The translations under genes and the position numbers were made by a program. A stretch of DNA of 64,000 nucleotides from Acidobacteriota bacterium (lineage in GTDB: Bacteria; Acidobacteriota; UBA6911): NCBI GenBank assembly GCA_963664705.1, contig OY761556.1, positions 3,808,001 to 3,872,000 on the forward strand, given 5' to 3'. The notes beneath the pieces were generated by a model. It was not told the DNA's origin. It saw nothing but the letters and a program-made list of their open reading frames with translations, and did not search any database. Positions 1,804 through 23,016 of this stretch are shown here, piece by piece. How positions within the stretch are numbered: the stretch's first letter is position 1; every line of letters starts with the position of its first letter.

Positions 1804-1827
1804 GCCGGCGAGACGCCGGTGTTCCCG
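1804..1827. repeat. REP-like palindrome, family B (GCCGGCGAGACGCCGGTGTTCCC)
   Basis: GC-rich hairpin; related copies at 7193-7216, 7273-7292 and 18972-18992. Confidence 0.6.
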
Positions 1828-1832
1828 GCAAG

Positions 1833-4508: not shown

Positions 4509-4546
4509 CTAAGTGTCCTTTCCTTGATGAATTTGCGCCGAAGGCG

Positions 4547-4634
4547 CCTTGGAGTGCGGCAGCAAGCTGCCGCCTTTCAACAGTGCTTTATCGCACACAT
4601 TACTAAAGCTCAAGCAAGCCTGCACACTCCAAGG
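4547..4634. repeat. REP doublet, family A (TTGGAGTGCGGCAGC...GCACTCCAA)
   Basis: Terminal inverted repeat CCTTGGAGTG / CACTCCAAGG with internal hairpins; homologous copies at 18866, 21770 and 30048. Confidence 0.75.
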
Positions 4635-4663
4635 GTTCCGCCGCAGATAAAAATGAAACATCC

Positions 4664-5857: not shown

Positions 5858-5871
5858 ATAGACACCGAAGT

Positions 5872-5960
5872 AATTTCAGATTCCAGATTTCAGATTTTCG
5901 ATTCGAGATTTCACAAATTCAGATCAGGAATCCGGAATCGGGAATCTGAAATCTGGAATT
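5872..5960. repeat. Heptamer inverted array (ATTYCAG)n...(CTGRAAT)n
   Basis: Tandem 7-mers on both arms between the thiolase and CoA-transferase genes. Confidence 0.7.
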
Positions 5961-5965
5961 TATAT

Positions 5966-7168: not shown

Positions 7169-7192
7169 ATCCTCCTGTCCCAGCCAATTGGC

Positions 7193-7292
7193 CGGAGCGC
7201 CGGCGTCTCGCCGGCATCACATTTCGTTTACTGCATGCGCGTTCGATCAGCCTTCACAAATCTCCGTGCCACCGGGAGTGCCGACGTGCCGG
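7193..7292. repeat. Two REP-like palindromes, family B
   Basis: GGAGCGCCGGCGTCTCGCCGGC (7193-7216) and GGGAGTGCCGACGTGCCGG (7273-7292). Confidence 0.55.
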
Positions 7293-8090: not shown

Positions 8091-8684
8091 TCATTCGCGG
8101 TTAAACGAAGCCAATGCTTCCGTCAATACATAGGCCGCCTGTAAAGCCGACGTCGGGCAGAGAGGAAAACACTCTTTACAGTTCCAGCATTCCTTCGCTG
8201 CCAGTTCCGGAATGAAGCTGATAGATCGATGCGCGCCCCTGTCCACAAACCCAATCGCATCCAACCGCTTCACTTCGGTGCAGTAGCGGACGCAAAGCCC
8301 GCACAGAACACAGAACGACGCCTCCTTCTCGAAACGATTCCTGTCTGCCCCATATTCCTGAGCAAGGCTGACCAATTCGGCCGAATCCGGCGCATGCGCC
8401 ATCAACTCCTCCAGCAGAACCCGGCGGATCCGGTTCACTTTTTCCGATCTCGTTCGAATCACGAATCCGTTCTCCACCGGACGGACGCAGGCTGCAACAT
8501 AGTTGATGCGCCCGTTTACTTCCGCTTCCACCGTGCAGACACGGCAGGCCCCATAAGCTTCCAGCTTTTCGTGATGACACAGTGTCGGAATGGAAATCCC
8601 AGCTTCGCGGGCAGCATCAAGAATTGTCATCCCATCTTTAGCCCGGATTTCTTTCCCATCAATCGTTATGAAGATATCGTTCAC
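8091..8684 (-). CDS. bamI: Class II benzoyl-CoA reductase subunit BamI (NuoG N-terminal-like Fe-S protein)
   Basis: IPTLC..GACRVC..AAC [2Fe-2S] motif, CVLCGLCVRYC, CWNCKECFPLCPT; overlaps the bamH stop. Confidence 0.85.
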   Translation of the reverse strand: MNDIFITIDGKEIRAKDGMTILDAAREAGISIPTLCHHEKLEAYGACRVCTVEAEVNGRINYVAACVRPVENGFVIRTRSEKVNRIRRVLLEELMAHAPDSAELVSLAQEYGADRNRFEKEASFCVLCGLCVRYCTEVKRLDAIGFVDRGAHRSISFIPELAAKECWNCKECFPLCPTSALQAAYVLTEALASFNRE

Positions 8685-10609
8685 GGCCGTGTCTCCCTGG
8701 CCAGCATCCTGGCCTCTTCATGAATGGGAGGAGGAACCGGCTCGCCGGATAAACGACGGACCGCACCGAAACGCGACGGGCAGACCTCAAAGCAGGTCCC
8801 ACAGCTGTTGCATTTTCCCTGGTCAATCACGTGAATCTGGTTTTTACCGCCGCCAATCGCCTGCGTCGGACATTTCCTGAGGCAGATCATGCAGGCCTTG
8901 CACTTCTCCGGATCAATGCAATAGGAAACCAGCTGCTTGCAGACAAACGCCGGGCATTTTTTCCCCTTGATGTGCGCGTCGTATTCGTCGCGGAAATAGC
9001 GAATCGTGCTCAGCACCGGGTTCGGAGCGCTTCCGCCCAGCGCGCACATCGATGCCAGCTTTGTTGTCTCAGCCAGATCCTCCAGAAGCTCAACATCCCC
9101 TTCTTTGCCCTTCCCCTGGCTGATGTTCGTTAAAATTTTGAGCATCTGCCGGATGCCTTCCCGGCACGGCGTGCATTTGCCGCACGATTCCTCGGCTAGA
9201 AAATCCAAAAAATACCTGGCGACATCAATCATGCAGGTATCTTCATCCATCACGATCATGCCGCCCGATCCCATGATGGCGCCCACTTTTGCCAGCTCAT
9301 CAAAATCAACCCCGATATCGAGGAATTGTTCGGGAATGCAACCACCGGAGGGGCCGCCGGTCTGCACCGCCTTGAACTTCTTTCCTTTGGGGATACCACC
9401 GCCTACCCTGTAAATGATGTCCCTCAGAGTAATCCCCATAGGTACTTCGACGAGGCCGGTATTGTTTACCTTGCCGACGAGCGAGAATATTTTCGTCCCC
9501 TTGCTCCGGCCTGTTCCGATCGATGCAAGAAACTCCGGACCATTGTTGATAATCAGCGGAATATTGGCCCATGTTTCAACATTGTTGATATTGGTGGGTT
9601 TTCCGTGGAGTCCTCTTACGGCAGGGAATGGCGGCCGGGGACGAGGTTCGCCTGGCTTTCCTTCAAGCGACATGAGAAGCGCCGTCTCTTCACCGCAGAC
9701 AAACGCCCCTGCCCCCCGATGCACATGAACAGAAAAATTAAAGCCGCTGCCGAGAATATTCTCTCCAAGCAAGCCATACTCTTTGGCTTGCTTAATGGCA
9801 ATCGTGACATTCTCAACGGCTAGCGGGTATTCCTGTCGAACATAAATGTAGCCTTCATTGGCGCCGATGGCATACGCGCCAATTGTGAGGCCCTCCAGAA
9901 CCGCATGCGGATTTCCTTCAAGCAGCGCCCTATCCATGAACGCGCCCGGATCACCCTCGTCCGCATTCACTACAACGTACTTGATGTCACCCGCACTCTT
10001 GCGGGCAAATTCCCACTTCAACCCGGACGGAAATCCGGCACCACCGCGGCCACGCAATCCGGATGACTTTACCCCTTCAATTATTTGCTCCGGCGTCATT
10101 TGAAATAAGGCTTCCATCAACGCGGAATAGCCGCCGACCGCGAAATAGCTGTCGATACTTTTGGGATCAAGTTTGATGTTGTTTCCGAGGAGAAGCCGCC
10201 GTTGATATTTGTAAAAAGGAATTTCTGATTCCTGAACCGACTTTTCGCTGGTAATGGGATCCACATAGAGCAGTCGATCGATGACCTTCCTGTTTACAAT
10301 CGTTTCAGATACGATTTCTGCCGCATCCCTGGCCTGCGCCTGTACATAACAGGTCTCCTCAGGGTAAATCACCATGATGGGCCCGCGTTCACAGAAGCCC
10401 GGGCAGCCCGTTTCCCGAAGATCGACAACCTCCGTATTCAATCCCTTCTTTCTGATCTCACCTCTCAGGGCTGTGACAAGTGCAGTGGCACCCAACGCAA
10501 TGCAGCCGGTTCCAGTACACACGGCAATACAAGCCTTTTGCGGATTGTCTCTGGCGATTAGCTCTTTCCGGAACTCTTCCAGTTCATCGGGCGTATTCAG
10601 CCTTGGCAT
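8681..10609 (-). CDS. bamH: BamH (NuoF-like NAD(H)/FMN-binding subunit)
   Basis: SGLRGRGGAGFP, NADEGDPG, FVCGEETAL, ESCGKCTPCREG, C-terminal 2x[4Fe-4S]. Confidence 0.9.
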   Translation of the reverse strand: MPRLNTPDELEEFRKELIARDNPQKACIAVCTGTGCIALGATALVTALRGEIRKKGLNTEVVDLRETGCPGFCERGPIMVIYPEETCYVQAQARDAAEIVSETIVNRKVIDRLLYVDPITSEKSVQESEIPFYKYQRRLLLGNNIKLDPKSIDSYFAVGGYSALMEALFQMTPEQIIEGVKSSGLRGRGGAGFPSGLKWEFARKSAGDIKYVVVNADEGDPGAFMDRALLEGNPHAVLEGLTIGAYAIGANEGYIYVRQEYPLAVENVTIAIKQAKEYGLLGENILGSGFNFSVHVHRGAGAFVCGEETALLMSLEGKPGEPRPRPPFPAVRGLHGKPTNINNVETWANIPLIINNGPEFLASIGTGRSKGTKIFSLVGKVNNTGLVEVPMGITLRDIIYRVGGGIPKGKKFKAVQTGGPSGGCIPEQFLDIGVDFDELAKVGAIMGSGGMIVMDEDTCMIDVARYFLDFLAEESCGKCTPCREGIRQMLKILTNISQGKGKEGDVELLEDLAETTKLASMCALGGSAPNPVLSTIRYFRDEYDAHIKGKKCPAFVCKQLVSYCIDPEKCKACMICLRKCPTQAIGGGKNQIHVIDQGKCNSCGTCFEVCPSRFGAVRRLSGEPVPPPIHEEARMLARETRP

Positions 10610-10618
10610 ACACAATCC

Positions 10619-11071
10619 TTACTCGTAATGTTTCAGCACCTCTTGAGAGCTCGACGGGGACATCTTTCCGTGATAGTCACCATCGATTACCATCACAGGC
10701 CCCAGTGCGCAGCAACCGACACAGCCCACAGTCTCCAGGCTAAAACGATATTCGGAGTCCGTTTCTCCTGGGCCGACTCCGATCAGATCCTGCACGGAAT
10801 CGAGCAGCCGCGCCGCGCCACGCACGTGGCAGGCTGTACCCGTGCACACATGAATTTCATGGCGGCCTTTCGGGACGAGGCTGAAAGCCTTATAAAAGGT
10901 CACAATGTGCTGAATCCGGCTGAGCGGCACTTTGAGCCTAAGGCTGACCTTTTCAATAGCCTCGTCTGGAAGCCATCGATTCTCGCGTTGAATCTCGAGG
11001 AGAATCTGGATGAGCGAACCGGAATCGTCCGGATACTTCCCGATAATTTCCTCAATCCTTGCGTTGTCCAT
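10619..11071 (-). CDS. bamG: BamG (NuoE-like [2Fe-2S] subunit)
   Basis: CTGTACHVRG and CVGCCALGP motifs. Confidence 0.9.
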   Translation of the reverse strand: MDNARIEEIIGKYPDDSGSLIQILLEIQRENRWLPDEAIEKVSLRLKVPLSRIQHIVTFYKAFSLVPKGRHEIHVCTGTACHVRGAARLLDSVQDLIGVGPGETDSEYRFSLETVGCVGCCALGPVMVIDGDYHGKMSPSSSQEVLKHYE

Positions 11072-11081
11072 ATGTCCTGTT

Positions 11082-11168
11082 ATTTAGATTTCAAATTTCA
11101 GATTACGGATTTCAGATTTCAGATGAAGACCTGTTGATCTGAAATCTGAAGTCTGGAATCGTGAATCG
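11082..11168. repeat. Heptamer inverted array (ATTTCAG)n...(CTGAAAT)n overlapping the bamF 3' end
   Basis: Same 7-mer family as 5872-5960; translates as the TIPDFRFQINRSSSEI tail. Confidence 0.7.
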
Positions 11169-11918
11169 CTTTTGGCTCTCGTCAAATTTCGTCAGGCCCT
11201 GCCTCGCGGAATTATTCAAATGCCTCGCAACAACCGGGGCAGGCATCCCCAGAATTCCCGAAAGCTCTCCAGTCGATCGTGGTTGCTCTTTCAGGAGGGC
11301 TAGGATCTCGGCAATCGTCAGTTTCTCTGCAATGAGTTCCTCGAAGAGCCGCATCACCCCTTCACTGCCGAAGTAGGCCTCATACTCTTCCGCTGAGTTG
11401 CAGCGCGTCCGCAGACGTTCCCTCTCCACCAACCGAATGTATGGAATCAATTTCGTAATTGCTTCCAGCTTGAACCGCAGTGCTCCCTTTTCAATTCCTT
11501 CGCCAGCCCCGATGGGTCCCAACTCGCGCAGCGTCCTTGAAAAGTCATTCATGACTTCAGCGAACCGGATCCCCTCGCCGGCAGAAACCTGTTCAATCCT
11601 CAGTCGTTCAGGATTGAGCCCGATGAGCCCGAGCATCTTCTTGCAAATCTGCACCATCGCATATGCGTGGTGATTGCCATCGGTGATGTAGTGGCACTCG
11701 TTCAGGTGACACCCGCCAATGAATACACCGTCCGATCCATTGGAGAAGGCACGGAAGACAAATGCCAGATCGACACGTCCGCTGCACATGACCCGGATCA
11801 GTTTGATATCGGTTGCGTATTGTTGTCTGGAGACTCCAGCGAGATCGGCAGCGCCGTACGCTCACCAGTTACATACGAAACCAATAACCCTTGGTTTAAA
11901 ATTGGCCTCTGCTCTCAT
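11112..11918 (-). CDS. bamF: BamF (MvhD-like [2Fe-2S] selenoprotein, 268 aa, Sec at codon 19)
   Basis: ATG at 11918 with GAGGGG RBS reads MRAEANFKPRVIGFVCNW-TGA-AYGAADLAG...RVMCSGRVD, in frame with ORF 11112..11789; TGA at 11862-11864 occupies the second Cys/Sec position of the MvhD CxxC/U motif. Confidence 0.9.
11815..11861 (-). promoter_or_regulatory. Candidate bacterial SECIS element
   Basis: After the UGA: GCGTA...TACGC base pairing and an apical CTGGA-GTC-TCCAG hairpin whose loop starts about 27 nt downstream. Confidence 0.55.
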
Positions 11919-11960
11919 TTTGGCCCCTCACTTAACATTTCACGTTGGACGTTGGAACGC

Positions 11961-14900
11961 TTATGCCACAAAAAGCGCAGCATCGATCTGATCAATAATG
12001 GCCTCATCCGTGTAATGCTTCAGAACAATTGCGCCGGTTGCGCATTTTGTGTTGCAAAGCCCATCCCCCTTGCAGAGGATAGGATTTACCTTTGCCTTCC
12101 GCCCCTTTTCCGATTGGTAAAACTCAATGGCACCATAGGTACACGCGGTGATGCAGGCGCCGCACGACACACACAGGTCCTCGTTAACATCACACACGGA
12201 TCCCGAAGCCGTGACAGTGTCATGCGAGAGCAATGTAACGGCTCGCCCTGCAGCTCCATAAGCCTGGCTGACCGCTTCGGTAATATGCTTCGGGTAATGT
12301 GCAGTCCCACACAAATACACGCCCTCGGCCCCAAAATCGACGGGGCGCAACTTGACATGCGCTTCCTGGAAAAACCCGTCAGGATTCAAAGTAACCTTGA
12401 ACAGCGCAGCAATTTCCTTATTCCCTGAAGAGGGAATGACCGCCGCGGCCAATACGAGCGCATCGGCGTCGATCCCAAGCTCTGTTCCTAAAATGGGATC
12501 CGGCACCGTCACCCGCAGTACGCTTCGGCCATTCTCCTCAACAGCGTCCACTTGAGGCTTTGCATCTGCCTCGTAGCGGATAAATCGCACATTCCGGTTG
12601 GATGCTTCGCGGTAATAGTCCTCGCGAAAGCCATACGCGCGAATATCCCGAAAAAGGACATAGACATCCGCGGCCGGGTTGATTTCTTTGAGTTTTAAAG
12701 CGTTTTTAATGGCATGGCTGCAGCAGATGCGCGCGCAATAATTGCGATCCTCCTGCCTGCAGCCCACACACTGAATCATTGCTATCGTTTGAGCGCCGGA
12801 AATGCGTTCATCATTTCGCGCTATTCTCTCTTCCAGTTCAAGCTGCGTTAGCACTCTGTCGTTCTGTCCATACAGGTACTCAGTCGGCTTGTATTCATCC
12901 GATCCGGTGGCAAGCACCGTGACGCCGTGCTTAATGCGCAAAATTGTGCCTCTGGACTTGAGAGTGGTAACAAAATTTCCGACATAGCCTGCATTCTCAG
13001 TAATTGTTGTGCCGGTATAGACGTGAACGAGAGGATGTCGATATACCTGACTGACAATTCCCGTGAGATAGGCCTGAACATCCAAGCCTTCCAGTGTGTA
13101 GTGAATTCTCCGGGCAACGCCGCCAAGGTCTTCCTCTCTTTCCACGAGGTACACTTCATATCCCTGGTTGGCGATACTCAACGCGCTGCTCATCCCCGCG
13201 AGCCCTCCGCCCACCACCAGGGCTTTCTTATTCACAGGAAGATCAAACTCCTGCAATGGTTCCAGGTGAGTAGCGCGGGCAACGGCCATTCGGATAATGT
13301 CCTTGGCCTTTCGCGTCGCATCTTCCTTTTCCTTGGAATGAACCCACGAACAGTGCTCCCGGATATTCGCCATGTCGTAGAAGTACTGATTGATTCCTGC
13401 TTCACGGAGCGTATCGCGGAAAAGCGGTTCATGCGTACGCGGAGTGCAGGCTGCGACCACGACGCGGTTAAGTCCTTTCTCGCGGATGGAGGTCGCAAGT
13501 CTTTGCGCGGCATCCGTCGAACAGATAAAGAGGCTCTCTTCTGCGTGAGCAACATTGGGCAGGCTCAATGCATATTCAACGGCAGAGGGAACATTGACGA
13601 CCCGTCCGATGTTGGCGCCACAGTGGCACACATAAACGCCGACTTTGGGTTCCTCCTTGGAGACATCCCGTTCCGGCGGATACACTCTCTGCTCCGCAAG
13701 CTTGCCCCTGCGGTACCCAAGGAGTTCCCCGCATTGTGATCCCGCGCCGCAGGCAGTCACAACCGATTCAGGAATATCGATAGGCCCTTGAAAGGCGCCG
13801 CTGATGAAGATGCCAGGGCGCGAGGTCTTCATCGGATTCACAGGATCTGTCTGGCAGAACCCATGGCTGTTCAAATCAATGCCAAACTTGGCAGCCAAAC
13901 CCTGGAAATCTTTGGGAGGATTCAATCCGACCGAAAGCACAACCATGTCGAACTCTTCCTCTTTTACTCCCTCATCCGGCGTGGAATAGCGGATTGTTAC
14001 GTTTTTGCTTCCGGGAATTTCCTTTCCAATGGACGTATAGCTCCGGATAAACCGGATACCGGGCAGCTTTTCGGCTCTCTGGTAGAAGCGCTCGAAATCC
14101 TTTCCATAGGATCGAATATCGTTGTGAAAAATGGTGCACTCTGCCTCCGCGTCGTGGTCCTTTGTGAGGATCACCTGCTTCTGAGTATAGGTGCAGCAGA
14201 CCGCGGAGCAGTAACTGCGCCCGCCGGGAATCACCTGGCGGGATCCGACGCAATGAACCCATGCAATTTTGTGCGGATGTTTTTTATCCGTCACGCGCCG
14301 GATTTCTCCCTCATAGGGACCGGTGGCACAGAGCAGCCGTTCATAGTCCAGGCTGGTTACTACGTTTTCATACTTGCCGTAACCGTAATCTTCGCGCAGC
14401 TTCGGGTCGAACGGCTCAAAACCAGGGGAGAGGATGATGGCGCCAACCTTGACCTCCATCTTTTCTGTGGTCTGATGGAAATCGATCGCGTTGTTTTTAC
14501 AGACGCTCGTGCAGATTGTGCATTTCTGCTCTTTAAGATATAGACAACTGTCATCTATATACGTAACCAGCGGGATAGCCTGCGAAAAATATATGTGGAT
14601 GGCCTTATTGGAGGAAATGTCCTGGTTGAAGGGATCAGGGTATTTGACCGGGCAATACTCGACACACACCGTGCAGCCGGTGCAGCGCTCTTCAACAACA
14701 TACCGAGGCCTCTTGGCCAGGGTAACCCTGAAATCACCGGCTTTGCCTTCGACGCTGTCCACTTCCGTGTAGGTCAGGATCTCAATATTCGGATGACGGC
14801 TGCACTCCACGAATTTAGGAGATTCGATACACATCGAGCAGTCATTGGTAGGAAATGTCTTGTCAAGTTGAGACATATGCCCGCCAATGGTGGGAGACTT

Positions 14901-15029
14901 CTCAACCAGGTAAACCTTGAAGCCGGCTGTGGCAAGGTCAAGGGCAGCCTGAATCCCGCTGATTCCGCCGCCCACTACCATGACATCTCCGTAATTACCG
15001 TTTGGGCTCAACCTCACTTCATTTGCCAC
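11961..15029 (-). CDS. bamE: BamE (HdrA-like flavin electron-bifurcating subunit)
   Basis: Two FAD-binding GGG motifs, LDKTFPTNDCSMC, CVGSR..YCSAVCC, VCHCGANI, AACTPRTHE, NIREHCSWVH, C-terminal ferredoxin. Confidence 0.92.
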   Translation of the reverse strand: MANEVRLSPNGNYGDVMVVGGGISGIQAALDLATAGFKVYLVEKSPTIGGHMSQLDKTFPTNDCSMCIESPKFVECSRHPNIEILTYTEVDSVEGKAGDFRVTLAKRPRYVVEERCTGCTVCVEYCPVKYPDPFNQDISSNKAIHIYFSQAIPLVTYIDDSCLYLKEQKCTICTSVCKNNAIDFHQTTEKMEVKVGAIILSPGFEPFDPKLREDYGYGKYENVVTSLDYERLLCATGPYEGEIRRVTDKKHPHKIAWVHCVGSRQVIPGGRSYCSAVCCTYTQKQVILTKDHDAEAECTIFHNDIRSYGKDFERFYQRAEKLPGIRFIRSYTSIGKEIPGSKNVTIRYSTPDEGVKEEEFDMVVLSVGLNPPKDFQGLAAKFGIDLNSHGFCQTDPVNPMKTSRPGIFISGAFQGPIDIPESVVTACGAGSQCGELLGYRRGKLAEQRVYPPERDVSKEEPKVGVYVCHCGANIGRVVNVPSAVEYALSLPNVAHAEESLFICSTDAAQRLATSIREKGLNRVVVAACTPRTHEPLFRDTLREAGINQYFYDMANIREHCSWVHSKEKEDATRKAKDIIRMAVARATHLEPLQEFDLPVNKKALVVGGGLAGMSSALSIANQGYEVYLVEREEDLGGVARRIHYTLEGLDVQAYLTGIVSQVYRHPLVHVYTGTTITENAGYVGNFVTTLKSRGTILRIKHGVTVLATGSDEYKPTEYLYGQNDRVLTQLELEERIARNDERISGAQTIAMIQCVGCRQEDRNYCARICCSHAIKNALKLKEINPAADVYVLFRDIRAYGFREDYYREASNRNVRFIRYEADAKPQVDAVEENGRSVLRVTVPDPILGTELGIDADALVLAAAVIPSSGNKEIAALFKVTLNPDGFFQEAHVKLRPVDFGAEGVYLCGTAHYPKHITEAVSQAYGAAGRAVTLLSHDTVTASGSVCDVNEDLCVSCGACITACTYGAIEFYQSEKGRKAKVNPILCKGDGLCNTKCATGAIVLKHYTDEAIIDQIDAALFVA

Positions 15030-15078
15030 GTTGCTTTGTCTCCAATGCCTTTTCGCCCCAGCTGGCTCTCCGGCCCCG

Positions 15079-16230
15079 CTAGATGAGTGGCTCGATAATC
15101 TCGGTGATTTCCTTCACCTCAATCGCATCGCTGTCATCACGATTCATTCGGCTGTCTTCAAAATTCGTAATGCAGTAAGGACAGGCTGTAACCAGAGTCC
15201 GGGCTCCAGTCTCAACAGCCTGTGCCAACCGGAGATCGGAAAACCGCTCTCCTTTCGGCGTTTCCATCCAGATTCGTCCTCCGCCGCCCCCGCAGCACAT
15301 GCTGTCCACTCTGGCATCCGGCATTTCGCGCACTTGAAGCCCGGGAATCCTTTTCAGAATTTCCCTCGGCTGTTCGTAAATGCCATTGTGCCGTCCGAGA
15401 TAGCATGGATCATGGTAGGTAGCCGATGCCTCCAGGCTTCCATTCAACTGAAGCCTTCCGGAATCCATCAGTTCCAATAAAAACTGACTGATATGCACAA
15501 CCTCAAAGTGAACCTTGAATTCCGCATACTCATTCTTGAAGGCCTGATAGCAATGGGGGGATGAGACCAATATCTTCTTCACGCCGGCATCGATGAAGGT
15601 TTTGATGTTCTCCTTGGCCAGTTTACGGAACAAATTTTCGTCGCCGGCCTTGCGGATGCTTTCACCGCAACAGCTTTCCTGCTCGCCGAGGATACCGAAT
15701 TTCACGCCCGCCTTATTGAGGATACTGACTGTGGATTTGGCCGCTCTTTTTAGCCTCGCATCGTAACTGAGATAGCAGCAGGGGAAATACAGGAGTTCCA
15801 TGCCCTCTTCAAAAAGGCTTACATTCAGGCCCCAGGCCCAGTTTGCACGTTTGGCTCTTTCCTCGCTGAGTGGATTCCCGACGCCGCTCAGGCTTGCGCT
15901 GACACCGCGGATGGGACGAACGGAATTCGGAAAAACTCCAAATTCAGTGGCAACACGTCGGGATGCAACTCCGACTTCAATGATTCCAACACCTCGCGGG
16001 CACCGCTGGGGACACCGGCCACAGGTTGTACAGCGCCAGATTTCCTCGGTTTCAATTTCCGTCAGTCCGAATGTTGCCTGACGGATAAGACGGCGCATGC
16101 TGAAAGAGCGAACGCGGTTCCACGGGCAAACGGTGTCGCACAGTCCGCACTGATAGCAGTATTTGAAGGCTTCGCCGCCCTGGGCGCGTATGCTATCGAC
16201 GATTTCCTTGTAGTCGGCTACATTTTCCAC
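15079..16230 (-). CDS. bamD: BamD (HdrB/C/D-like CCG-domain Fe-S protein)
   Basis: CYQCGLCDTVCP, CTTCGRCPQRCPRG, ESCCG, YHDPCYLGR, CCGGGGG, TACPYC. Confidence 0.9.
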   Translation of the reverse strand: MENVADYKEIVDSIRAQGGEAFKYCYQCGLCDTVCPWNRVRSFSMRRLIRQATFGLTEIETEEIWRCTTCGRCPQRCPRGVGIIEVGVASRRVATEFGVFPNSVRPIRGVSASLSGVGNPLSEERAKRANWAWGLNVSLFEEGMELLYFPCCYLSYDARLKRAAKSTVSILNKAGVKFGILGEQESCCGESIRKAGDENLFRKLAKENIKTFIDAGVKKILVSSPHCYQAFKNEYAEFKVHFEVVHISQFLLELMDSGRLQLNGSLEASATYHDPCYLGRHNGIYEQPREILKRIPGLQVREMPDARVDSMCCGGGGGRIWMETPKGERFSDLRLAQAVETGARTLVTACPYCITNFEDSRMNRDDSDAIEVKEITEIIEPLI

Positions 16231-16281
16231 TTTGCATTCCTATTTTGCGCGAGCCCCACCGAGACGGCGGAGTTCCCTGCT

Positions 16282-16821
16282 TTAGCCCTTCTTCGACATT
16301 CGAGCGATGGCGTCCATCACCTGCTGCAATCCGTACTTCCTGGCCAGGGCCTCAAGGCCGATTTCCATTTCCTGTGGCTTTTCCGTTTCCTCGACTTCCT
16401 CTTCCCGCTCCTCGTAAATCAGTGCCTTGTTGAGACACCACTGCACGCACATCGGTTCTGCAAGCGGCGGATCCGATTCGCACATATCGCACTTCAGCGG
16501 CAAGCCAGAATCCGGCTCTCGAAAGATATCCCTGGAGGAGCAGGAAGCGCGGCAGAAGCCGCATTCGTCATACTCCTTTCCGTCAATGATGTAGACATCT
16601 CTGCCCATACATTCGGCGGGCGCATGTTCTCCGGCATACACAGGGATGAACACATCGCGCAGAGGATCCCGCATCATCCGGATTCGCGACCGCGCAGGGT
16701 TGTTGCTGCTGTATTTCGGCGTCGCGTGGAAAGCGGAGCAGATCACTTCGCAGGCCCTGCAGCCATTGCATTTGTCCGCGTCAATCCGGATCATTTTGAT
16801 TTTTTTCCTGACTTTACCCAT
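16282..16821 (-). CDS. bamC: BamC (electron-transfer Fe-S subunit)
   Basis: CNGCRACEVICS, CGFCRASC, KCDMC...PMCVQWC; ATG at 16821 overlaps the bamB stop. Confidence 0.9.
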   Translation of the reverse strand: MGKVRKKIKMIRIDADKCNGCRACEVICSAFHATPKYSSNNPARSRIRMMRDPLRDVFIPVYAGEHAPAECMGRDVYIIDGKEYDECGFCRASCSSRDIFREPDSGLPLKCDMCESDPPLAEPMCVQWCLNKALIYEEREEEVEETEKPQEMEIGLEALARKYGLQQVMDAIARMSKKG

Positions 16822-18775
16822 TTTGAATAATCCCTCTCTGCTGCAGGTCGTCGGCAATGTACGTCATATCCAGTTCTTTCAGTGACTCCCGGGTGGGAAT
16901 GCCCTGTTCGTCCCAGCCCTTAAAACTGTAATAGGAATCGAGCAGCTGTTTCTCCAGTTCGGGAAAACGCTTTTTCCAGTGGTCTTCGGGCGGGACTTCG
17001 TCGGATCTTCTCATCCCTTTGCGGATGTTTACGGCTCTGAGCAGCGTGCGATTTCTCTTTGTAATCTTCATCAGCCCGGCTTCATCGATATCCATTCCGG
17101 TGGCTGCGGAAATGAAGGATGGGTAGTTGTGAATATGGTACGGCGGCTTCAGTGGGAATGAAGACAGGCCCGCACACATGCCCATGGCATCATCGACGTA
17201 GTGCATCATCTCCTGCCAGTCGACGATATCGCAGCTCGCTGCAACATCCGGGTAATTGGGGTTGGAGTACTCGCCGCGCATCTCCCACTTGAGGACATAT
17301 TCCTTGAATCGGTTGTCCGGAACCTGAACCCAGTCCTTTACAAAATCTTCCCTCTCCTGGATGGTCGGAAAGGGTGCCTGCGGGAACTGTCCTTCGATCT
17401 GGGTAATGTTGATCTTCTCCCCTGTGGAATACATCAGGAAGTAAACGGGATTCAGCATCCCGAGTTTAAGCGGAAGCTGCTCCTGCTTCTTGATGTTGTT
17501 ATGAGCGAATTCCTCGGCACCACTGCCGATCTGTTTGGCCGCCCAGTAAGTTCCATTGGCAAGGACATCTCCGATTCCTTCGCGCCGGACGATCCGGTCC
17601 AGCAGCCAATAGAATCGGCCTTCGTTGTCAGAAGGCATCCCCTCGAACTGCTCAGGTTTCAGGATGCCGGCTTCGAGCAGCTCGAGCCCAAAAGCCATTA
17701 CTTGCGGCGCGGAAAAGCCGTCAACGCCGTACTCCGTAGCCCGTTGGGCAATTTTGAAACCAAAGTCGAGGTCTGCATACGCTGCCATCGTGTAGGTGAG
17801 TTTTGTGAAGCATTTCATCATGTACGTGGAGATGCCCGGCACCGCGATCGTCGCGCCGCATTTCATCGGACAGTTGTAGCAGCTGATCAATCGCTTTCGG
17901 ACTGCAGTTTGTGTTTCTTCCCACTTCTTTTCGACTTCCTTCGTCCAGAAGTCCTTGCGGCGCGTGCGGGAATTCCCCCACATGAAGTTTGTGGTGTGCC
18001 ACTCTTCATCAATGAGCTTCATTTCCTGCGGCGAACCAAGACCGGCAAGAATCGGCATGACACCCGGGATCGGCTTATCTTCACGATCCCTGATGTATTG
18101 GAGAACCTGCTGGCAAAGCCCATGGAATTCCGCTGGCTTGGCAAGGTTGACATCTTTGGTGCCGCGAACCGCAATCGCCTTGATGCCCTTATCACCCATA
18201 ACGGCACCAATCCCGCCACGGCTTGCACTTGAGCGTCCCTGCTCGATCGAAGCAAAGTAGACCCTGTGTTCACCCGCCATCCCGATAGCCGCAACCTGGG
18301 CCCGAGGTTCCTTCAGTTCCCGGCGAATCTCCTCCGCCGTTTCATTGGCACCCTTGCCTCGCAGATGCGTTGCATCGCGTATTTCAACCTTATCATTATT
18401 GATCCAGATGTAGACGAGGTTGGGCGACTTGCCGCGAAAAATGACCTTGTCATAGCCCGCATATTTCAATTCGGGCGCCCAGAATCCGCCCATCATGGAG
18501 TAGGCGGTAAAAAGCGTCTGCGGTGAAAAAGTCGTAACGATCGTACGATTCGCACCGGGCGCCGGAGTGGCGCAGAGAAGACCCGTGCTGAAAATCAGAA
18601 GATTATCCGGAGAGAAAGCATCCGTATCAGGGGGGACCCGATCCCACAGAATCTTGGTGCTTGTTCCCAAGCCTCCGAGATGCATTTCGGTCAGTTTGGG
18701 ATCTGTTTCGACACGATCGATGCTCCCTCTGGATAGATCTATTTCCAGGTTAAACCCTGTCTCCCCATACCTCAT
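16814..18775 (-). CDS. bamB: BamB, tungsten-pterin active-site subunit of class II benzoyl-CoA reductase (AOR family)
   Basis: 653 aa; MRYGETG start, ASIEQGRSSASRGG, SCYNCPMKC, MMKCFTKL (Cys322), EKINITQIEGQFPQ, LSSFPLKPPYHIHNY; closely matches the recalled Geobacter BamB sequence. Confidence 0.95.
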   Translation of the reverse strand: MRYGETGFNLEIDLSRGSIDRVETDPKLTEMHLGGLGTSTKILWDRVPPDTDAFSPDNLLIFSTGLLCATPAPGANRTIVTTFSPQTLFTAYSMMGGFWAPELKYAGYDKVIFRGKSPNLVYIWINNDKVEIRDATHLRGKGANETAEEIRRELKEPRAQVAAIGMAGEHRVYFASIEQGRSSASRGGIGAVMGDKGIKAIAVRGTKDVNLAKPAEFHGLCQQVLQYIRDREDKPIPGVMPILAGLGSPQEMKLIDEEWHTTNFMWGNSRTRRKDFWTKEVEKKWEETQTAVRKRLISCYNCPMKCGATIAVPGISTYMMKCFTKLTYTMAAYADLDFGFKIAQRATEYGVDGFSAPQVMAFGLELLEAGILKPEQFEGMPSDNEGRFYWLLDRIVRREGIGDVLANGTYWAAKQIGSGAEEFAHNNIKKQEQLPLKLGMLNPVYFLMYSTGEKINITQIEGQFPQAPFPTIQEREDFVKDWVQVPDNRFKEYVLKWEMRGEYSNPNYPDVAASCDIVDWQEMMHYVDDAMGMCAGLSSFPLKPPYHIHNYPSFISAATGMDIDEAGLMKITKRNRTLLRAVNIRKGMRRSDEVPPEDHWKKRFPELEKQLLDSYYSFKGWDEQGIPTRESLKELDMTYIADDLQQRGIIQNG

Positions 18776-18865
18776 TCTGCAGCCCCCTGTTTGGACACGT
18801 ATCCCGCCGGAAAAGCCCGGAGCACAGCCACCCTCGCCGATGCCGCATATTGTCTGTCGGAAGCA

Positions 18866-18953
18866 AAGACCTTGGAGCGCGGTGGTTTGCCACCGCCTTC
18901 ACTCTTTTGTGGTCTTTTAAAGGCGGCGGCAAGCTGCCGCACTCCAAGGTCTT
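18866..18953. repeat. REP doublet, family A
   Basis: AAGACCTTGGAG...CTCCAAGGTCTT terminal inverted repeat with GGCGGCAAGCTGCCGCACTCC. Confidence 0.75.
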
Positions 18954-19038
18954 CGCCCTAGGCAAATAATAGGCGGGACGCCGGCACTCCGGCTCCAAGG
19001 TCGCACAAAGCCCCTAAGCGTACCTGCGTTGGAGAAGG

Positions 19039-19683
19039 CTAGATTTCCTTCTCCAAGGGCAACATTTGAATCATGCTAAAGCCCAAAGACTTGAAATAGG
19101 AAATAAGATCGCCATCATGCCATTCCACCAGAGTCTGGATCTTCCGGACGTTCTTCTTCCGAAAATGGTCCACCAGCGTGGCCCCCAGCTTGCGGCCCAC
19201 GCCTTTCCCCTGGTATTCAGGATCAACGCCCAAAATCAGGATCCAGCCGGTCATTTCAGACCGGCCGAATTCCCAGCGCCGGACTTCCCCAATCACAAAA
19301 CCAACCAGTTTCTGGTCGATCTCCGCCCCCAGGATCATCAACGGATCACCGTGCTGCAGGTGGTAAACCGTTGTATCTTTCAGGGAGACAAGCTTCTCCT
19401 TGTCGGAATCCTGCTCCCCTACGATTTTTGCCTGAATGCGAAGGATGTCTTCGAGGTCGTCCATCCCAAGGAATCGGATGGTAATGGCTGCCGAAATATC
19501 GGTCCAAAGTTTAGTGCGGCCGACTTGATTGTAGTGGATCTTTCCCTCTGCGCGAAGTACTTCCAGGTATTTGGCTACAGTGTGGCGGGTTAGGTTCAGT
19601 CGCTCGGCGAGTTCTTCCATTTGAATGCCGGACTTGGCGGACTGGAGGATCTTCAGGATATTGTTCTGGATGTTTTCTTCCAT
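19039..19683 (-). CDS. Winged-HTH / GNAT acetyltransferase fusion (putative regulator)
   Basis: N-terminal ELAERLNLTRHTVAKYLEVL..EG HTH; C-terminal GNAT motif A LGVDPEYQGKGVG and YFKSLGF. Confidence 0.8.
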   Translation of the reverse strand: MEENIQNNILKILQSAKSGIQMEELAERLNLTRHTVAKYLEVLRAEGKIHYNQVGRTKLWTDISAAITIRFLGMDDLEDILRIQAKIVGEQDSDKEKLVSLKDTTVYHLQHGDPLMILGAEIDQKLVGFVIGEVRRWEFGRSEMTGWILILGVDPEYQGKGVGRKLGATLVDHFRKKNVRKIQTLVEWHDGDLISYFKSLGFSMIQMLPLEKEI

Positions 19684-19701
19684 ACAACACTCGGCGCCAT
19701 G

Positions 19702-19753
19702 GGTTACCGATATTGGTTACCGATAGAGTAGTCAGCACGCCGAGGAGTGTCAA
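19702..19753 (-). promoter_or_regulatory. Sigma70-like promoter TTGACA-17-TACTCT with a tandem TATCGGTAACC repeat over the start site
   Basis: -35 at 19748-19753, -10 at 19725-19730; plus-strand GGTTACCGATA at 19702-19712 and 19715-19725. Confidence 0.65.
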
Positions 19754-19809
19754 GGAGAATTCGTGGGATTCATAGTTAAAAGCTTCTAACCACGAATCCC
19801 ACAAAAGGC

Positions 19810-20604
19810 CTATTTATCCTCCCAGACAGCCTTGCGGCGCTCGATAAAAGCCATGATCCCTTCATTGCCATCATGGCTCGCCAGCACTTCAGTCACATAC
19901 TGGCGCTCGAGACTATCCAGCGTATCACCAAGTGCAACAAGGATGCCGGAGCCTGTGCGCGCAACCTTCGCAGCCTGGCGAATTGCAAAAGCAGACAGTG
20001 GACGCAGAGTATTGCGGTACCAGTCGAGCATCTCTTCATCGAGGCTCCCGCCTGAAAACAGAGCGGAGACAAATCCCACCCGCTCCGCCGTTGCGGCGTC
20101 GATTGTCGCTCCGGTCAGAATCATCCTTTCCGCCAGTGCGCCCCCCAGCCGATGGGCACCGATGGCGCCCAGAACCGGCGGAAAAACTCCAAGTTTGATT
20201 TCCGGGCATCCGAAATTTGCGCTGGGAGCGGCAAAAACAAGGTGACAGGCAAGAGCCAATTCAAATGCGCCGCCAAGACAGGCCCCTTCCACCAAAGCTA
20301 CAACAGGGACTGGATAGGACGCCACTTGACGAATCATCGCATGAAACCCGGCGAGCATGGCCGGAGCCTGATCCTTTTTATGTTCTTCCACTGAAGCCCC
20401 GAAAGAAAAATGACTCCCCGCCCCGCGAATAACCACCATGCGAAGGCGAGGGCTATTCGCATGAGCGGAAAGCGCTTCGGAGAGTGCCTTCATCATCTCC
20501 ATCGAAAGCACGTTGCCTTTTGGTTTATCGAGCACCAGGCGAAGCAGCGTATCCTCTTCAAGAAGGCTGATGTTTACAACGGGCGAAGCAGTTTCTGTGG
20601 GCAT
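19810..20604 (-). CDS. dch: Cyclohexa-1,5-diene-1-carbonyl-CoA hydratase (Dch/BamR)
   Basis: Crotonase fold, PKGNVL, HFSFGASVEEH, CLGGAFEL, PEIKLGVFPP, SHDGNEG; start at 20604 with AAGGAG RBS. Confidence 0.9.
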   Translation of the reverse strand: MPTETASPVVNISLLEEDTLLRLVLDKPKGNVLSMEMMKALSEALSAHANSPRLRMVVIRGAGSHFSFGASVEEHKKDQAPAMLAGFHAMIRQVASYPVPVVALVEGACLGGAFELALACHLVFAAPSANFGCPEIKLGVFPPVLGAIGAHRLGGALAERMILTGATIDAATAERVGFVSALFSGGSLDEEMLDWYRNTLRPLSAFAIRQAAKVARTGSGILVALGDTLDSLERQYVTEVLASHDGNEGIMAFIERRKAVWEDK

Positions 20605-20693
20605 AAAGACTCCTTGGCTACTATTGGATTTCGGATTATGGATCGGGATTCCGGATTGAGGTCGAATTGGCTTTTTCAATCCGGAATCACAAT

Positions 20694-21743
20694 CTACGCA
20701 CGCGGATCCATTACCATTCGCTTCTCCAATTTGTGGGCAGCCATGTCGGCAAGATAATCATTCACCTTGGACATGGGGCCATAAGCAATAAATGGATCCA
20801 GCTTCACCTTTCCCTCCTGAATCAAACGGAGTACTCCGGGATAAACTTCCGGAGGACATCCCCAGGTTCCATGCAGCGTTGCATCAAACGCCATCAGGTT
20901 GGACAGCCTCACATCAATTTTCGTGGGCGTGTATCCCACCTGCAGCATCGTCGCACCTCGTTCGAGGAGTCCATAAGCAGTTACCTGTCCGGGTGCGCTG
21001 CCGCTGCATTCGAAAATCTTGTACTGGAAGGTGGGCGCGCCTTTGGCAAATGCTCGCACCTGCTTGCGGAGTTCCTTCGGATCCAGGTTTGCAAGATTGA
21101 TAATCTGCTCTGCTCCATATTGGGCAATCAAAGCCAGCCGTTCGACAACGATATCGCAGGCAAGAACTCGCGCCCCGAGTGCGCTGGCAATCTGCACTAC
21201 AAAACCTCCGACGCCGCCAGCCCCGATAACAATTGCGACATCACCCGGGCTGAGACTGGCACGAAGGATCGCCTGGTATGCGGTGGACACGGCATCCGCC
21301 ACCACCGAAAGAGCGGCCGGGTTGTCCATCGAGCCGATCTTGATCAGCGGAGGGGCGGGCACAAGGAAGTGAGTTGAGAATCCACCGTCGATATCGTTCC
21401 CCGGCATTTTCTGATTCGGGCATGCGTTCCCTCGTCCCGCTTTGCAAAACGGGCACTCGCCGCAAGGAAGCACGGCCGGCACCAGAACAATGTTGCCAAC
21501 CAGCGGTTCAAAATATTTTCCGGCTTCAACAACGCGCCCAACGGCCTCATGTCCCAATACGATGGGAGTTCCTTTCTTCGTTGGCACGGATCCATCGGCG
21601 TAGCCCAAGTCTGTGTGACAAAGCCCGCAGGCGATCACTTCGACAATAGCTTCAGTCGGTCCGGGAGCCGGAATCGGCAAGGGACGGCGCACCAATGGGG
21701 ACTTCGGAGTCTCCAAAACATATGCTTCAGCGGTCACTGGCAT
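20694..21743 (-). CDS. had: 6-hydroxycyclohex-1-ene-1-carbonyl-CoA dehydrogenase (Had/BamQ)
   Basis: Zn-ADH motifs CGLCHTD, GHE, CGECPFC...C, QKMPGND, SNLMAFDA, WGCPP. Confidence 0.92.
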   Translation of the reverse strand: MPVTAEAYVLETPKSPLVRRPLPIPAPGPTEAIVEVIACGLCHTDLGYADGSVPTKKGTPIVLGHEAVGRVVEAGKYFEPLVGNIVLVPAVLPCGECPFCKAGRGNACPNQKMPGNDIDGGFSTHFLVPAPPLIKIGSMDNPAALSVVADAVSTAYQAILRASLSPGDVAIVIGAGGVGGFVVQIASALGARVLACDIVVERLALIAQYGAEQIINLANLDPKELRKQVRAFAKGAPTFQYKIFECSGSAPGQVTAYGLLERGATMLQVGYTPTKIDVRLSNLMAFDATLHGTWGCPPEVYPGVLRLIQEGKVKLDPFIAYGPMSKVNDYLADMAAHKLEKRMVMDPRA

Positions 21744-21769
21744 GTCTTTTCTCCATTTCCTGGAAGGTT

Positions 21770-21853
21770 CTTGGAGTGCGCAGGCTTGCTTGCGCCTTCA
21801 CAACAATCGTGAAGGCAAAGCCCAAAGGCGGCAGCAAGCCGCCGCACTCCAAG
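21770..21853. repeat. REP doublet, family A
   Basis: CTTGGAGTGCG...CGCACTCCAAG between oah and had. Confidence 0.75.
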
Positions 21854-21855
21854 CA

Positions 21856-23016
21856 TTATTTCTTGCTGCCTGCTGGTTGAGGAGCTCCCAACACCTGTTC
21901 CATGAACCATTCGTCGACGAGAGCGCCTTCCGAGATGAGCTGACGATATTTGATGAAGTTGATGGTATCCGCGTTTGTTATCTTCTTGGTGTTAAACGCG
22001 CCGAAGCCAAGGAAGGCTTCGCCCATCATATTCGCGGCAAGCCAGTGCCGGTTGGGATTCTTGATCTGATCCCAGAAGAACTTCTTCTTATTCCGGATCC
22101 CATCAATAGACATGATCAGGCATCCGGGGAAGAGATTTGCAAAGGTCCAGACAATTTTGTCTACTTCGGCATCGAGGAGGGAAAAATCGTAATCGTTGTT
22201 CTTCAGCTTTTCATTTACCCAGGCGCGCGCCTTTTTCAAATCATCACCGGTTTTATACTCGCCATAAACGATTTCCCCATTCTGGACATAGGTATCGGTT
22301 ATGATTTGAGGATTCCGCACCCACTCCCCCTTCTCGTCCTTGAGAACAGGAACAACCTTGGACACAAGGTTTTTCGCCTTCATTTTGTAGGCGCTCCACA
22401 TTTCACAACTGATGCAGTTCCACATGGCATCTTCAGCGGTAAGGAACCAGGGCAGGAAATCCGAGGCACCTCCAACGGGAGCGGATCCATGCCGCGGGCC
22501 GGCCTGCCCGAATATGGCTAAATCCGATGTCACCGCGATATCGCAAGCCAGCCCGATCTCCTGGCCACCGGCCACCCTCATGCCGTTTACACGGCAGATA
22601 ACCGGTTTCTTGCACATCAGAATGGAGTCCACCATATTGTTGAAGAGCTCCATATACGCGCCGTACTCCTCGGGTCGTTTGCTGTAATATTCCGAGTATT
22701 CCTTGGTATTGCCGCCGGTGCAGAAGGCATTAGGTCCGGTCCCGGTAAATACGACCGCAACCACTTCCCGGTCGACGGAGGAATTCTCGAATCCAGCAAT
22801 AACGCCCTTCACCATTTCGGTTGTATAGGAATTGTATTGCGCGGGGTTGTTCAGCCGAATCCAGGCCACAAAAAGCCCTGGGACGACATTCCCCTTCGGG
22901 TCCTTCAATGGCGTTTTTTCATATACTACGCAAGGGGAATCCACGCCCCAATGCTCCGGGCCGAATCTGCTGTGATCCTTTTTCCCATGCTCTCTCGGCA
23001 TCCAATCTAGTCCCAT
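21856..23016 (-). CDS. bamA: 6-oxocyclohex-1-ene-1-carbonyl-CoA hydrolase (Oah/BamA)
   Basis: QYNSYTTEMVKG, FCTGGNTKEY, RVNGMRVAGGQE, FGQAGPRHGSAP, WLAANMMGEA. Confidence 0.95.
   Translation of the reverse strand: MGLDWMPREHGKKDHSRFGPEHWGVDSPCVVYEKTPLKDPKGNVVPGLFVAWIRLNNPAQYNSYTTEMVKGVIAGFENSSVDREVVAVVFTGTGPNAFCTGGNTKEYSEYYSKRPEEYGAYMELFNNMVDSILMCKKPVICRVNGMRVAGGQEIGLACDIAVTSDLAIFGQAGPRHGSAPVGGASDFLPWFLTAEDAMWNCISCEMWSAYKMKAKNLVSKVVPVLKDEKGEWVRNPQIITDTYVQNGEIVYGEYKTGDDLKKARAWVNEKLKNNDYDFSLLDAEVDKIVWTFANLFPGCLIMSIDGIRNKKKFFWDQIKNPNRHWLAANMMGEAFLGFGAFNTKKITNADTINFIKYRQLISEGALVDEWFMEQVLGAPQPAGSKK

What the first reader, a model, noticed from the sequence alone, without database searches (positions are those of the whole stretch)
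19039..19753. Winged-HTH-GNAT fusion heading the bamB-I operon, with its own promoter and tandem operator: candidate new one-component acyl-CoA-sensing regulator
Seen: HTH and GNAT domains in one 214-aa protein; a TTGACA-17-TACTCT promoter; a perfect 11-bp direct repeat (TATCGGTAACC, 13-bp period) over the predicted start site; no clear promoter between this gene and bamB. Known: in Rhodopseudomonas palustris the GNAT BadL and the repressor BadM act together as separate proteins in benzoate regulation; other systems use BzdR or BamVW. Inference: the GNAT domain binds a CoA ester (acetyl- or benzoyl-CoA) or acetylates an effector, and the protein controls itself and bamB-I through the repeat.
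Basis: partly seen in the sequence, partly recalled or inferred. Interest (0 to 1): 0.72.

Follow-up and report, generated by a model that had tools for sequence, protein, structure and literature searches.

The report
Acetyltransferase-fold repressor of anaerobic ring reduction
A DNA-binding domain fused to an acetyltransferase-like domain sits at the head of benzene-ring-reducing gene clusters in uncultured Acidobacteriota together with a conserved palindrome over its promoter, and it likely works as a repressor that is predicted to let go when a CoA ester such as benzoyl-CoA binds.

Summary
Observation confirmed and extended. The 214-aa winged-HTH–GNAT gene, TTGACA-17-TACTCT promoter and 13-bp-period repeat are real. 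The repeat is one reading of a 20-bp dyad, GGWWWCC-RATATY-GGWWWCC, lying 3 nt after the -10 box. It precedes 61 of 61 homologues with enough upstream DNA, is unique in this genome, and in 401 phylum genomes occurs exactly in the 4 carrying the fusion. The next gene is a benzoyl-CoA reductase in 55 of 57 readable loci: bamB (44) or class I bzdN (11). Six further copies stand away from the regulator, before SDR/thiolase genes, a second bamB or an HpaB-family gene, so control likely extends beyond autoregulation. The GNAT domain belongs to the wider family holding BadL-like proteins but is not a BadL orthologue; it keeps the CoA-binding loop and has Phe at the usual catalytic Tyr. Repression is strongly inferred; the ligand is untested (benzoyl-CoA favoured). 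It works like BzdR but fails membership of BzdR, BadM/BgeR and BadL. No paper found in 10 searches. This scan already noted the same family and operator on another genome (e1-926104).

The parts
19039..19683 (-). wHTH-GNAT fusion gene (214 aa): wHTH residues ~5-60, GNAT ~66-214; CoA pyrophosphate loop QGKGVG at 158-163; family motif RRWEFG 135-140; C-terminal strand LPLEKE 208-213
19748..19753 (-). -35 box TTGACA
19725..19730 (-). -10 box TACTCT (3 of 6; T-A-n-n-n-T kept)
19702..19721 (.). Operator core, 20-bp dyad GGWWWCC-RATATY-GGWWWCC (19699-19724 with flanks); two GG-N3-CC boxes 13 bp apart; predicted +1 near 19718-19719 falls inside it
19760..19805 (-). Terminator-like hairpin between dch and the promoter
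18776..19038 (-). 263-nt spacer with a 57-nt-arm hairpin (18843-18976) from a genome-wide repeat; no promoter-like or terminator-like site listed; longest spacer among homologues
16814..18775 (-). bamB-type AOR-family reductase subunit (named from domain content and gene order)
8091..16857 (-). bamC, D, E, F (in-frame TGA, probable Sec, real start near 11918), G, H, I-type genes
132..8081 (-). Same-strand continuation: SDR (7293-8081), thiolase (5966-7168), class III CoA transferase (4664-5857), molybdopterin oxidoreductase/Fe-S/NrfD genes; the SDR-led block carries its own operator copy in genomes where it is detached
19810..23016 (-). Upstream oah (21856-23016), had (20694-21743), dch (19810-20679); no operator copy in front of them in this genome

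Best explanation
The gene encodes a winged-HTH domain fused to a GNAT-fold domain, preceded by a conserved palindrome 3 nt after the -10 box, and it likely acts as a homodimeric repressor of its own mRNA, which likely runs on through bamB-I, and is predicted to release the DNA when an aroyl-CoA (benzoyl-CoA first choice) fills the GNAT acyl-CoA pocket. Shown: domains, site, position, conservation, co-occurrence, gene order. Inferred: (1) the wHTH binds the site (~90%); (2) binding over +1 represses (~85%); (3) one transcript covers regulator and reductase genes (~85%); (4) the GNAT domains dimerise through a swapped C-terminal strand (model only); (5) the GNAT domain is a ligand sensor for an aroyl-CoA rather than a working enzyme (~55%, the weakest step).
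For: Site before 61 of 61 fused homologues with at least 60 nt upstream, at most 3 mismatches to the 20-mer, 12 of 20 positions invariant in 54 non-redundant loci, across proteins down to 56% identity. PWM without this locus scores it 33.9 bits, next best in the genome 10.8. Exact pattern in 4 of 401 phylum genomes, the same 4 that hold the full-length fusion; none of the 37 with only stand-alone GNAT relatives; reversed-pattern control 0. Of 29 congeneric genomes 18 have the gene, all 18 directly before bamB; 10 have neither. Next gene bamB in 44, bzdN in 11 of 57 readable loci (bzdN/O/Q over NCBIfam cut-off); 10 of 11 bzdN and 1 bamB overlap or abut the stop codon, 9 of 44 bamB spacers are 30 nt or less. 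Six extra copies in 5 genomes lie away from the regulator gene: 4 before the SDR/thiolase block, 1 before a second bamB, 1 before an HpaB-family gene; 5 of the 6 keep TTGAC 32-34 nt upstream. Recognition helix TRHT-AKYLE-LRAEGK invariant in 42 aligned homologues. Homodimer model: score 0.66, best of 3 controls 0.00; that mark was reached by 20 of 30 solved homodimers and 1 of 23 single chains; runs agree in at least 92% of contacts, pLDDT at least 85; counts hold only roughly here. Phe197 aligns with the Tyr of RimI and Naa50; 0 of 407 motif-matched family members have Tyr there. Known regulators of these pathways commonly sense aroyl-CoA (PMC4424350 passages); BzdR reuses a dead enzyme fold for benzoyl-CoA (PMC3602430 abstract); PanM is a non-catalytic GNAT acetyl-CoA sensor (PMC4537548 passages).
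Against: No binding, expression or ligand data. Active tGCN5 also has Phe at that position, and BadL homologues do acetylate aminobenzoates, weakly (PMC6191541 section 8), so loss of catalysis is not shown. oah-had-dch carry no site in this genome. No benzoate-CoA ligase reaches the TIGR02262 cut-off in the genome, so the source of benzoyl-CoA is not identified. Two loci have a NifB-like gene next instead of a reductase (L070, L075). Some stand-alone relatives sit by non-aromatic genes (3 of 26 loci; L145, L146). The loci are related genomes and include duplicates, so counts are not independent events. The detached copies could be leftovers of rearrangement. G411 keeps two near-perfect sites although its regulator gene has an internal stop in the assembly.
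Confidence: 0.55

Rival explanations
1. Bifunctional BadL-like enzyme-repressor: same operator and repression, but the GNAT domain acetylates an aminobenzoate or other arylamine with acetyl-CoA, and the product or the catalytic cycle releases the DNA.
For: BadL homologues acetylate 2-, 3- and 4-aminobenzoate and the products weaken BadM binding (PMC6191541 sections 8, 10, 15). CoA-binding loop intact. The fused-domain profile finds a GNAT next to an Rrf2 gene in a badL-badM-like cluster at E 2.7e-13, against 1.4e-3 for the best other frame in the own genome.
Against: BadL activity was below kinetic detection and 10 mM product was needed in EMSA; a later paper says it is unclear why acetamidobenzoates would accumulate on benzoate (bioRxiv 10.1101/2023.10.10.561740 passages). 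The fused clade is separate from the BadL-like branch.
Confidence: 0.2
2. PanM/PanZ-like sensing of acetyl-CoA or free CoA: the protein reads the general CoA pool (for example acetyl-CoA as co-repressor) rather than the aromatic substrate.
For: GNAT pockets natively bind acetyl-CoA; PanM precedent. Some family members are not near aromatic genes.
Against: The fusion stays with benzoyl-CoA reductases of two unrelated classes and has a single site in this genome, unlike a general carbon sensor; 15 of 26 stand-alone relatives lie beside reductase-type or dch/had/oah genes and 8 beside a weakly BoxB-like gene.
Confidence: 0.13
3. The protein only autoregulates, or the palindrome is bound by another factor, and the bam genes have their own promoter.
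For: 263-nt spacer with a strong hairpin before bamB in this genome (z -4.2); binding not shown.
Against: Site and fusion co-occur exactly; overlapping genes in relatives; copies at catabolic promoters away from the regulator.
Confidence: 0.09
4. The palindrome works as an RNA hairpin in the 5' leader, not as a DNA site.
For: It is a dyad just after the predicted start; SD-like sequence before only 2 of 55 regulator genes.
Against: Would-be pairs are broken in 21, 14 and 14 of 55 loci at three stem positions while all G/C box positions are invariant; the predicted +1 cuts into the left arm.
Confidence: 0.03

Closest known systems
BzdR (and BoxR) of Azoarcus/Aromatoleum sp. CIB
   Same: One-component repressor logic: DNA-binding domain plus enzyme-derived sensing domain, operator overlapping -10/+1, gene upstream of bzdN. 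11 homologue loci occupy that position before bzdN.
   Different: BzdR is XRE-HTH plus shikimate-kinase fold and binds TGCA-N6-TGCA; this is wHTH plus GNAT with GGWWWCC-RATATY-GGWWWCC, is the first gene of the operon it likely controls, and also heads class II bam operons.
BadL (GNAT) with BadM (Rrf2) of Rhodopseudomonas palustris; Gmet_2096 of Geobacter metallireducens
   Same: GNAT needed for derepression of benzoyl-CoA reductase genes. Same wider GNAT family by synteny and termini: a relative beside an Rrf2 gene and a benzoate-CoA-ligase-family gene; primer-derived BadL C-termini match family C-termini at 6 of 8 residues.
   Different: Two proteins and a diffusible acetamidobenzoate there; one polypeptide here, no Rrf2 domain, only 26-31% identity to the BadL-like branch.
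BgeR and BamVW of Geobacter; BamK (Gmet_2077)
   Same: Regulators of bam genes in strict anaerobes; BamK is a benzoate-induced N-acetyltransferase in the bam cluster, 21.8-fold (PMC1924859 table passage).
   Different: BamVW is two-component; BgeR is Rrf2-type (recalled; paper not held). Homology of BamK to this domain was not tested.
PanM/PanZ
   Same: GNAT fold used as an acyl-CoA sensor without acetyl transfer.
   Different: Acts on an enzyme zymogen, has no DNA-binding domain.
Database-labelled HTH/MarR-GNAT fusions
   Same: HTH-plus-GNAT architecture exists as an annotation label (recalled; one listing).
   Different: No characterised member with an operator, ligand or aromatic link was found.

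Membership tests
BzdR/BoxR | N-terminal XRE HTH plus C-terminal shikimate-kinase-like domain | tested here: not met
   Pfam gives HTH_11/HTH_24 and GNAT only; fold searches return GNATs
BzdR/BoxR | TGCA-N6-TGCA operator | tested here: not met
   conserved site is GGWWWCC-RATATY-GGWWWCC
BzdR/BoxR | Operator overlapping -10/+1 of the reductase promoter | tested here: met
   0-5 nt after the -10 box in 53 of 53 loci with a -35 box; +1 itself is predicted
BzdR/BoxR | Benzoyl-CoA is the inducer | not testable with these tools
   needs binding assays
BadM/BgeR (Rrf2) | Rrf2 domain | tested here: not met
   no Rrf2 family among 12 Pfam hits at E<=0.001
BadL GNAT | Sequence relationship to BadL-like GNATs | tested here: met
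   family level only: profile E 2.7e-13 to the GNAT beside Rrf2; shared WEFG motif and C-terminus
BadL GNAT | Orthology (same branch as BadL-like proteins) | tested here: not met
   quick tree: 12 fused rows form one branch (SH-aLRT 100) apart from the 6 BadL-like rows; true BadL sequences not in the tree
BadL GNAT | Stand-alone protein next to an Rrf2 gene | tested here: not met
   fused; neighbours are dch and bamB
BadL GNAT | Aminobenzoate N-acetyltransferase activity | not testable with these tools
   needs enzyme assay
GNAT superfamily | Fold and Q/R-x-x-G-x-G/A CoA loop | tested here: met
   QGKGVG 158-163; Z 14.6, rmsd 3.1 over 141 residues to 1wwz
GNAT superfamily | Motif-B catalytic Tyr as in RimI/Naa50 | tested here: inconclusive
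   Phe here and 0 Tyr in 407 motif-matched members, but active tGCN5 also has Phe
BamVW | Two-component kinase/response regulator | tested here: not met
   no such domains

The most novel reading that the evidence does not exclude
This is a new family of one-component repressors whose GNAT domain has become a non-catalytic benzoyl-CoA receptor, and the fusion reveals what the whole Tyr-less WEFG GNAT family, BadL and perhaps BamK included, really does: sense aroyl-CoA and act directly on a partner DNA-binding protein, with aminobenzoate acetylation a side activity.
Probability: 0.25. Interest if true: 0.85.

Novelty: new variant of a known kind. Interest (0 to 1): 0.63.

Why it matters
Only a few regulators of anaerobic benzoyl-CoA pathways are described (BadM, BamVW, BgeR, BzdR), none of them from Acidobacteriota. 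This family comes with a small soluble protein and a sharply defined operator, so the ligand can be found with one EMSA series. It would be a second case, after BzdR, of an enzyme fold recruited as a CoA-ester sensor, serving both ATP-dependent and ATP-independent ring reductases. It also gives a direct test of an open problem: why BadL-dependent derepression responds to benzoate (called unclear in the preprint). The operator is a precise genomic marker for genes of this pathway in uncultured anaerobes.

Tried and rejected
RNA-hairpin reading rejected. Genome-wide regulon in this genome rejected: one strong site; single half-site hits were not followed up. One-mismatch hits in G210, G410, G414, G419 lie inside the coding region of a ribF-like gene (name recalled from its motif) and one in G416 breaks the ATAT centre; treated as chance. 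G415 lacks the site because its contig ends inside the regulator gene. Five HTH-only matches (L092-L096) have no GNAT and no site; dropped, as were L035 (35 nt upstream, partial site visible), L064, L081, L090 (5' end missing) from the site count, and L057, L062 from the next-gene count. Direct retrieval of BadL sequences failed: no exact terminal match among 504 proteins, no names in cluster look-ups. No relative in viral contigs; one in plasmids. Sequencing runs: no RNA holder listed. Protein atlas not reached. BgeR and BadM primary papers not held, so their binding sites were not compared. Four operator 11-12-mers in full text gave 12 unrelated papers. Not in print per searches; the library lacks most subscription papers, and bioRxiv supplements were closed. 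All three homologue searches used near lengths, so longer fusions were not sought apart from those seen. The careful tree did not finish; only the quick tree was read.

Full report
Observation. The ORF at 19039-19683 on the minus strand encodes 214 aa with HTH_11/HTH_24 hits at residues 5-49 and a GNAT hit at 106-202. An AlphaFold2 model from a 42-row alignment has a three-helix, two-strand wHTH followed by a GNAT fold (mean pLDDT 74, pTM 0.60), and both structure searches return GNATs for residues 65-214; the HTH part was barely tested by them and has only weak PDB sequence matches. Upstream are oah and had (over NCBIfam cut-off) and dch (under cut-off, E 1.6e-64); downstream are bamB-I-type genes, named from domain content and order. 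The -10 box is only 3 of 6, which is why the scanner missed it. The nearest named relatives are Acidobacteriota MAGs at 75-78% identity, so the host is probably of that phylum.

The site. The fusion is a conserved family: 580 proteins at E<=0.001 among 795 candidates, the best 120 at 76% identity or more. From three locus searches, 62 loci had a match of at least 50% identity reaching the N-terminus; 61 had at least 60 nt upstream, this locus included, and all 61 carry a 20-mer within 3 mismatches of GGTAACCAATATTGGTTACC (8, 25, 22, 6 with 0, 1, 2, 3). In 54 non-redundant loci without this one, the eight G/C box positions and the central ATAT are invariant while the promoter spacer upstream is not conserved. 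The consensus is GGWWWCC-RATATY-GGWWWCC: a dyad made of two GG-N3-CC boxes 13 bp apart, which is why it also reads as a direct repeat. 53 of 55 loci have TTGAC 30-34 nt before it, 51 of those 53 have a T-A-n-n-n-T box, and the site starts 0-5 nt after that box, most often 3. It thus covers the expected start site, the usual place for a repressor (established knowledge). Stem pairs are often broken, which argues against an RNA hairpin. A PWM finds one site in the 6.9-Mb genome, 33.9 bits against 10.8 for the next.

Site and protein go together. In 401 genomes of the phylum 41 match the protein, only 4 over its whole length; the exact pattern occurs in the same 4 and in no other, and the reversed pattern in none. 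In 29 congeneric genomes 18 have the gene, each directly before bamB; 10 have neither; one has only a 62%-identical partial bamB-like gene. With one mismatch allowed, 16 of 17 regulator-bearing genomes have the site at the gene (the miss is a contig end) and 3 of 11 genomes without the gene have a one-mismatch hit, none exact; two of those lie inside a coding region. These genomes are kin, so this is consistency, not a statistical test.

What it controls. Of 59 loci reaching the C-terminus, 57 show the next gene: bamB in 44, bzdN in 11, a NifB-like gene in 2 (BzdN, BzdO, BzdQ over cut-off and NifB-like under cut-off). Nine bzdN genes and one bamB overlap the stop codon by 4 nt, one bzdN abuts it, and 9 of 44 bamB spacers are 30 nt or less; this window's 263 nt is the longest and is mostly a hairpin repeat with 30 further blastn matches in the genome. 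So one transcript is likely. Seven extra sites were found in regulator-bearing genomes. One is a coding-region chance hit. Four (G404, G411, G422, G426) stand after oah-had-dch and before the SDR/thiolase block that in this window follows bamI; one precedes a second, regulator-less bamB in G405; one precedes an HpaB-family gene opposite a glutaryl-CoA dehydrogenase in G405. Five of the six keep TTGAC 32-34 nt upstream. When the cluster is split, the detached catabolic genes keep a promoter with the site, which is the best evidence that control is not merely autoregulatory. Against a complete regulon: oah-had-dch have no site in this genome. An SD-like sequence precedes only 2 of 55 regulator genes, so the repressor is probably made in small amounts from the shared mRNA.

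The GNAT domain. It keeps the CoA loop (QGKGVG) and an invariant RRWEFG. Its stand-alone relatives form a large family (651 and 1555 proteins; 728 clusters at E<=1e-10). Of 26 such loci in the phylum sample, 15 lie beside reductase-type, activase-type or dch/had/oah genes, 8 beside a weakly BoxB-like gene (E 5e-13) and 3 elsewhere (only representatives were scanned); two more lie in unrelated contexts. The only plasmid relative is directly followed by an Rrf2 gene, ABC transporter genes and a benzoate-CoA-ligase-family gene, the badL-badM-hba layout described for R. palustris. A profile of the fused domain scores it at E 2.7e-13 and related proteins at 1e-13 to 1e-17, against 1.4e-3 for the best other frame among 26,554 in the own genome. 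C-termini deduced from published BadL primers match family C-termini at 6 of 8 residues for two homologues and 4 of 6 for the third; that is suggestive, not a full alignment. A quick tree of 116 domains puts the 12 fused rows on one branch (SH-aLRT 100), apart from the BadL-like rows; bzdN-linked rows branch below the bamB-linked ones with support 93, a hint only that the class I link is older. Phe197 aligns with the Tyr of RimI and Naa50 but with Phe of active tGCN5; among 439 family proteins the motif matched 407, of which 350 have Phe, 38 Leu and none Tyr. A two-copy model scores 0.66 against 0.00 for the best of 3 controls (mark reached by 20 of 30 solved homodimers and 1 of 23 single chains; runs agree in at least 92% of contacts; pLDDT at least 85; calibration holds only roughly), with the C-terminal strand 207-212 and the WEFG loop at the interface. 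It supports, and does not show, a dimer.

Mechanism. Most likely: a GNAT-dimerised repressor sits on the dyad over +1 and silences its own gene and the reductase operon; an aroyl-CoA, benzoyl-CoA first, binds the acyl-CoA pocket and releases it. DNA binding and repression I put near 0.85-0.9; the whole model with this ligand at 0.55. The ligand argument is indirect: the pocket is made for acyl-CoA, the only constant partner is a benzoyl-CoA reductase of either class, and BzdR, BoxR, MbdR, PaaX, PaaR, CouR and FerR sense aroyl-CoA esters (PMC4424350, passages). A BadL-type catalytic route (0.2) and acetyl-CoA sensing (0.13) remain open. No benzoate-CoA ligase passes the family cut-off in this genome; the class III CoA transferase in the operon could make the ester (inference). 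Whether one dimer or two occupy the two boxes is not resolved.

Comparison and novelty. It works like BzdR (PMC3602430 abstract; PMC6678401 passages) but has other domains and another operator; it is not Rrf2, not two-component and not a BadL orthologue. Papers seen: PMC6191541 abstract, sections 4, 8, 10, 15 and Table S3; PMC1924859, PMC4537548, PMC4424350, PMC6678401 and bioRxiv 10.1101/2023.10.10.561740 as passages; PMC3602430 abstract; others as listings only. Ten searches found no description of this family or site; the BgeR and BadM primary papers were not held. An earlier AI note of this scan (e1-926104) reached the same reading for the family on another genome; it was seen after the analysis above and is not independent evidence. 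Verdict: a real, apparently undescribed regulator family with a well-defined operator; new variant of a known kind; interest 0.63.

Noticed in passing
window 11112-11918 (-): The bamF-type gene starts about 130 nt upstream of the listed ORF and reads through an in-frame TGA in C-N-W-*-A-Y, probably selenocysteine; the genome has tRNA-SeC calls; an ArsR-type HTH follows the FlpD domain.
   Followed up: partly
L070 3297-4124; L075: In two loci the regulator and its operator lead into a NifB-like radical SAM gene instead of a reductase; L070 also has a Sir2/CobB deacylase and a 4-hydroxybenzoyl-CoA-reductase-like gene upstream.
   Followed up: partly
L139 (G411:C34:10317-10961): The regulator gene has an internal TAA in the GNAT domain while two near-perfect operators persist in that genome; assembly error or a recent constitutive mutant.
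   Followed up: no
L008-L013, L015, L016: Stand-alone family GNATs directly precede a ~445-aa protein with only a weak BoxB match (E 5e-13) and no Pfam hit at 1e-8, in two cases after a lipoyl-synthase-like gene; unexplained.
   Followed up: partly
P0376, P0489, P0355, P0121-P0151: The same GNAT family occurs as tandem GNAT-GNAT proteins and fused to other domains (a 580-aa protein with a flavoprotein-like N-terminus by eye; a 302-aa protein with an unassigned N-terminus), which fits a modular sensor role.
   Followed up: no
L042, L043: oah is divergent from the regulator, so the promoter region is shared; L043 has TTGAC only 17 nt before the operator.
   Followed up: no
window 18843-18976: Long hairpin repeat with about 30 related copies in the genome; similar inserts recur around this gene in relatives.
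   Followed up: partly
window 48-110, 39833, 42927: Short 14-bp-period tandem repeats.
   Followed up: no
genome G000: At least 20 further AOR-family (bamB-like) tblastn matches at 23-36% identity.
   Followed up: no
window 58313-63341 and 36877-38052 (-): DUF72, IMS-family and DNA polymerase III alpha genes in a row, plus a second IMS-family gene; looks like a mutagenesis cassette (name of the system recalled).
   Followed up: no
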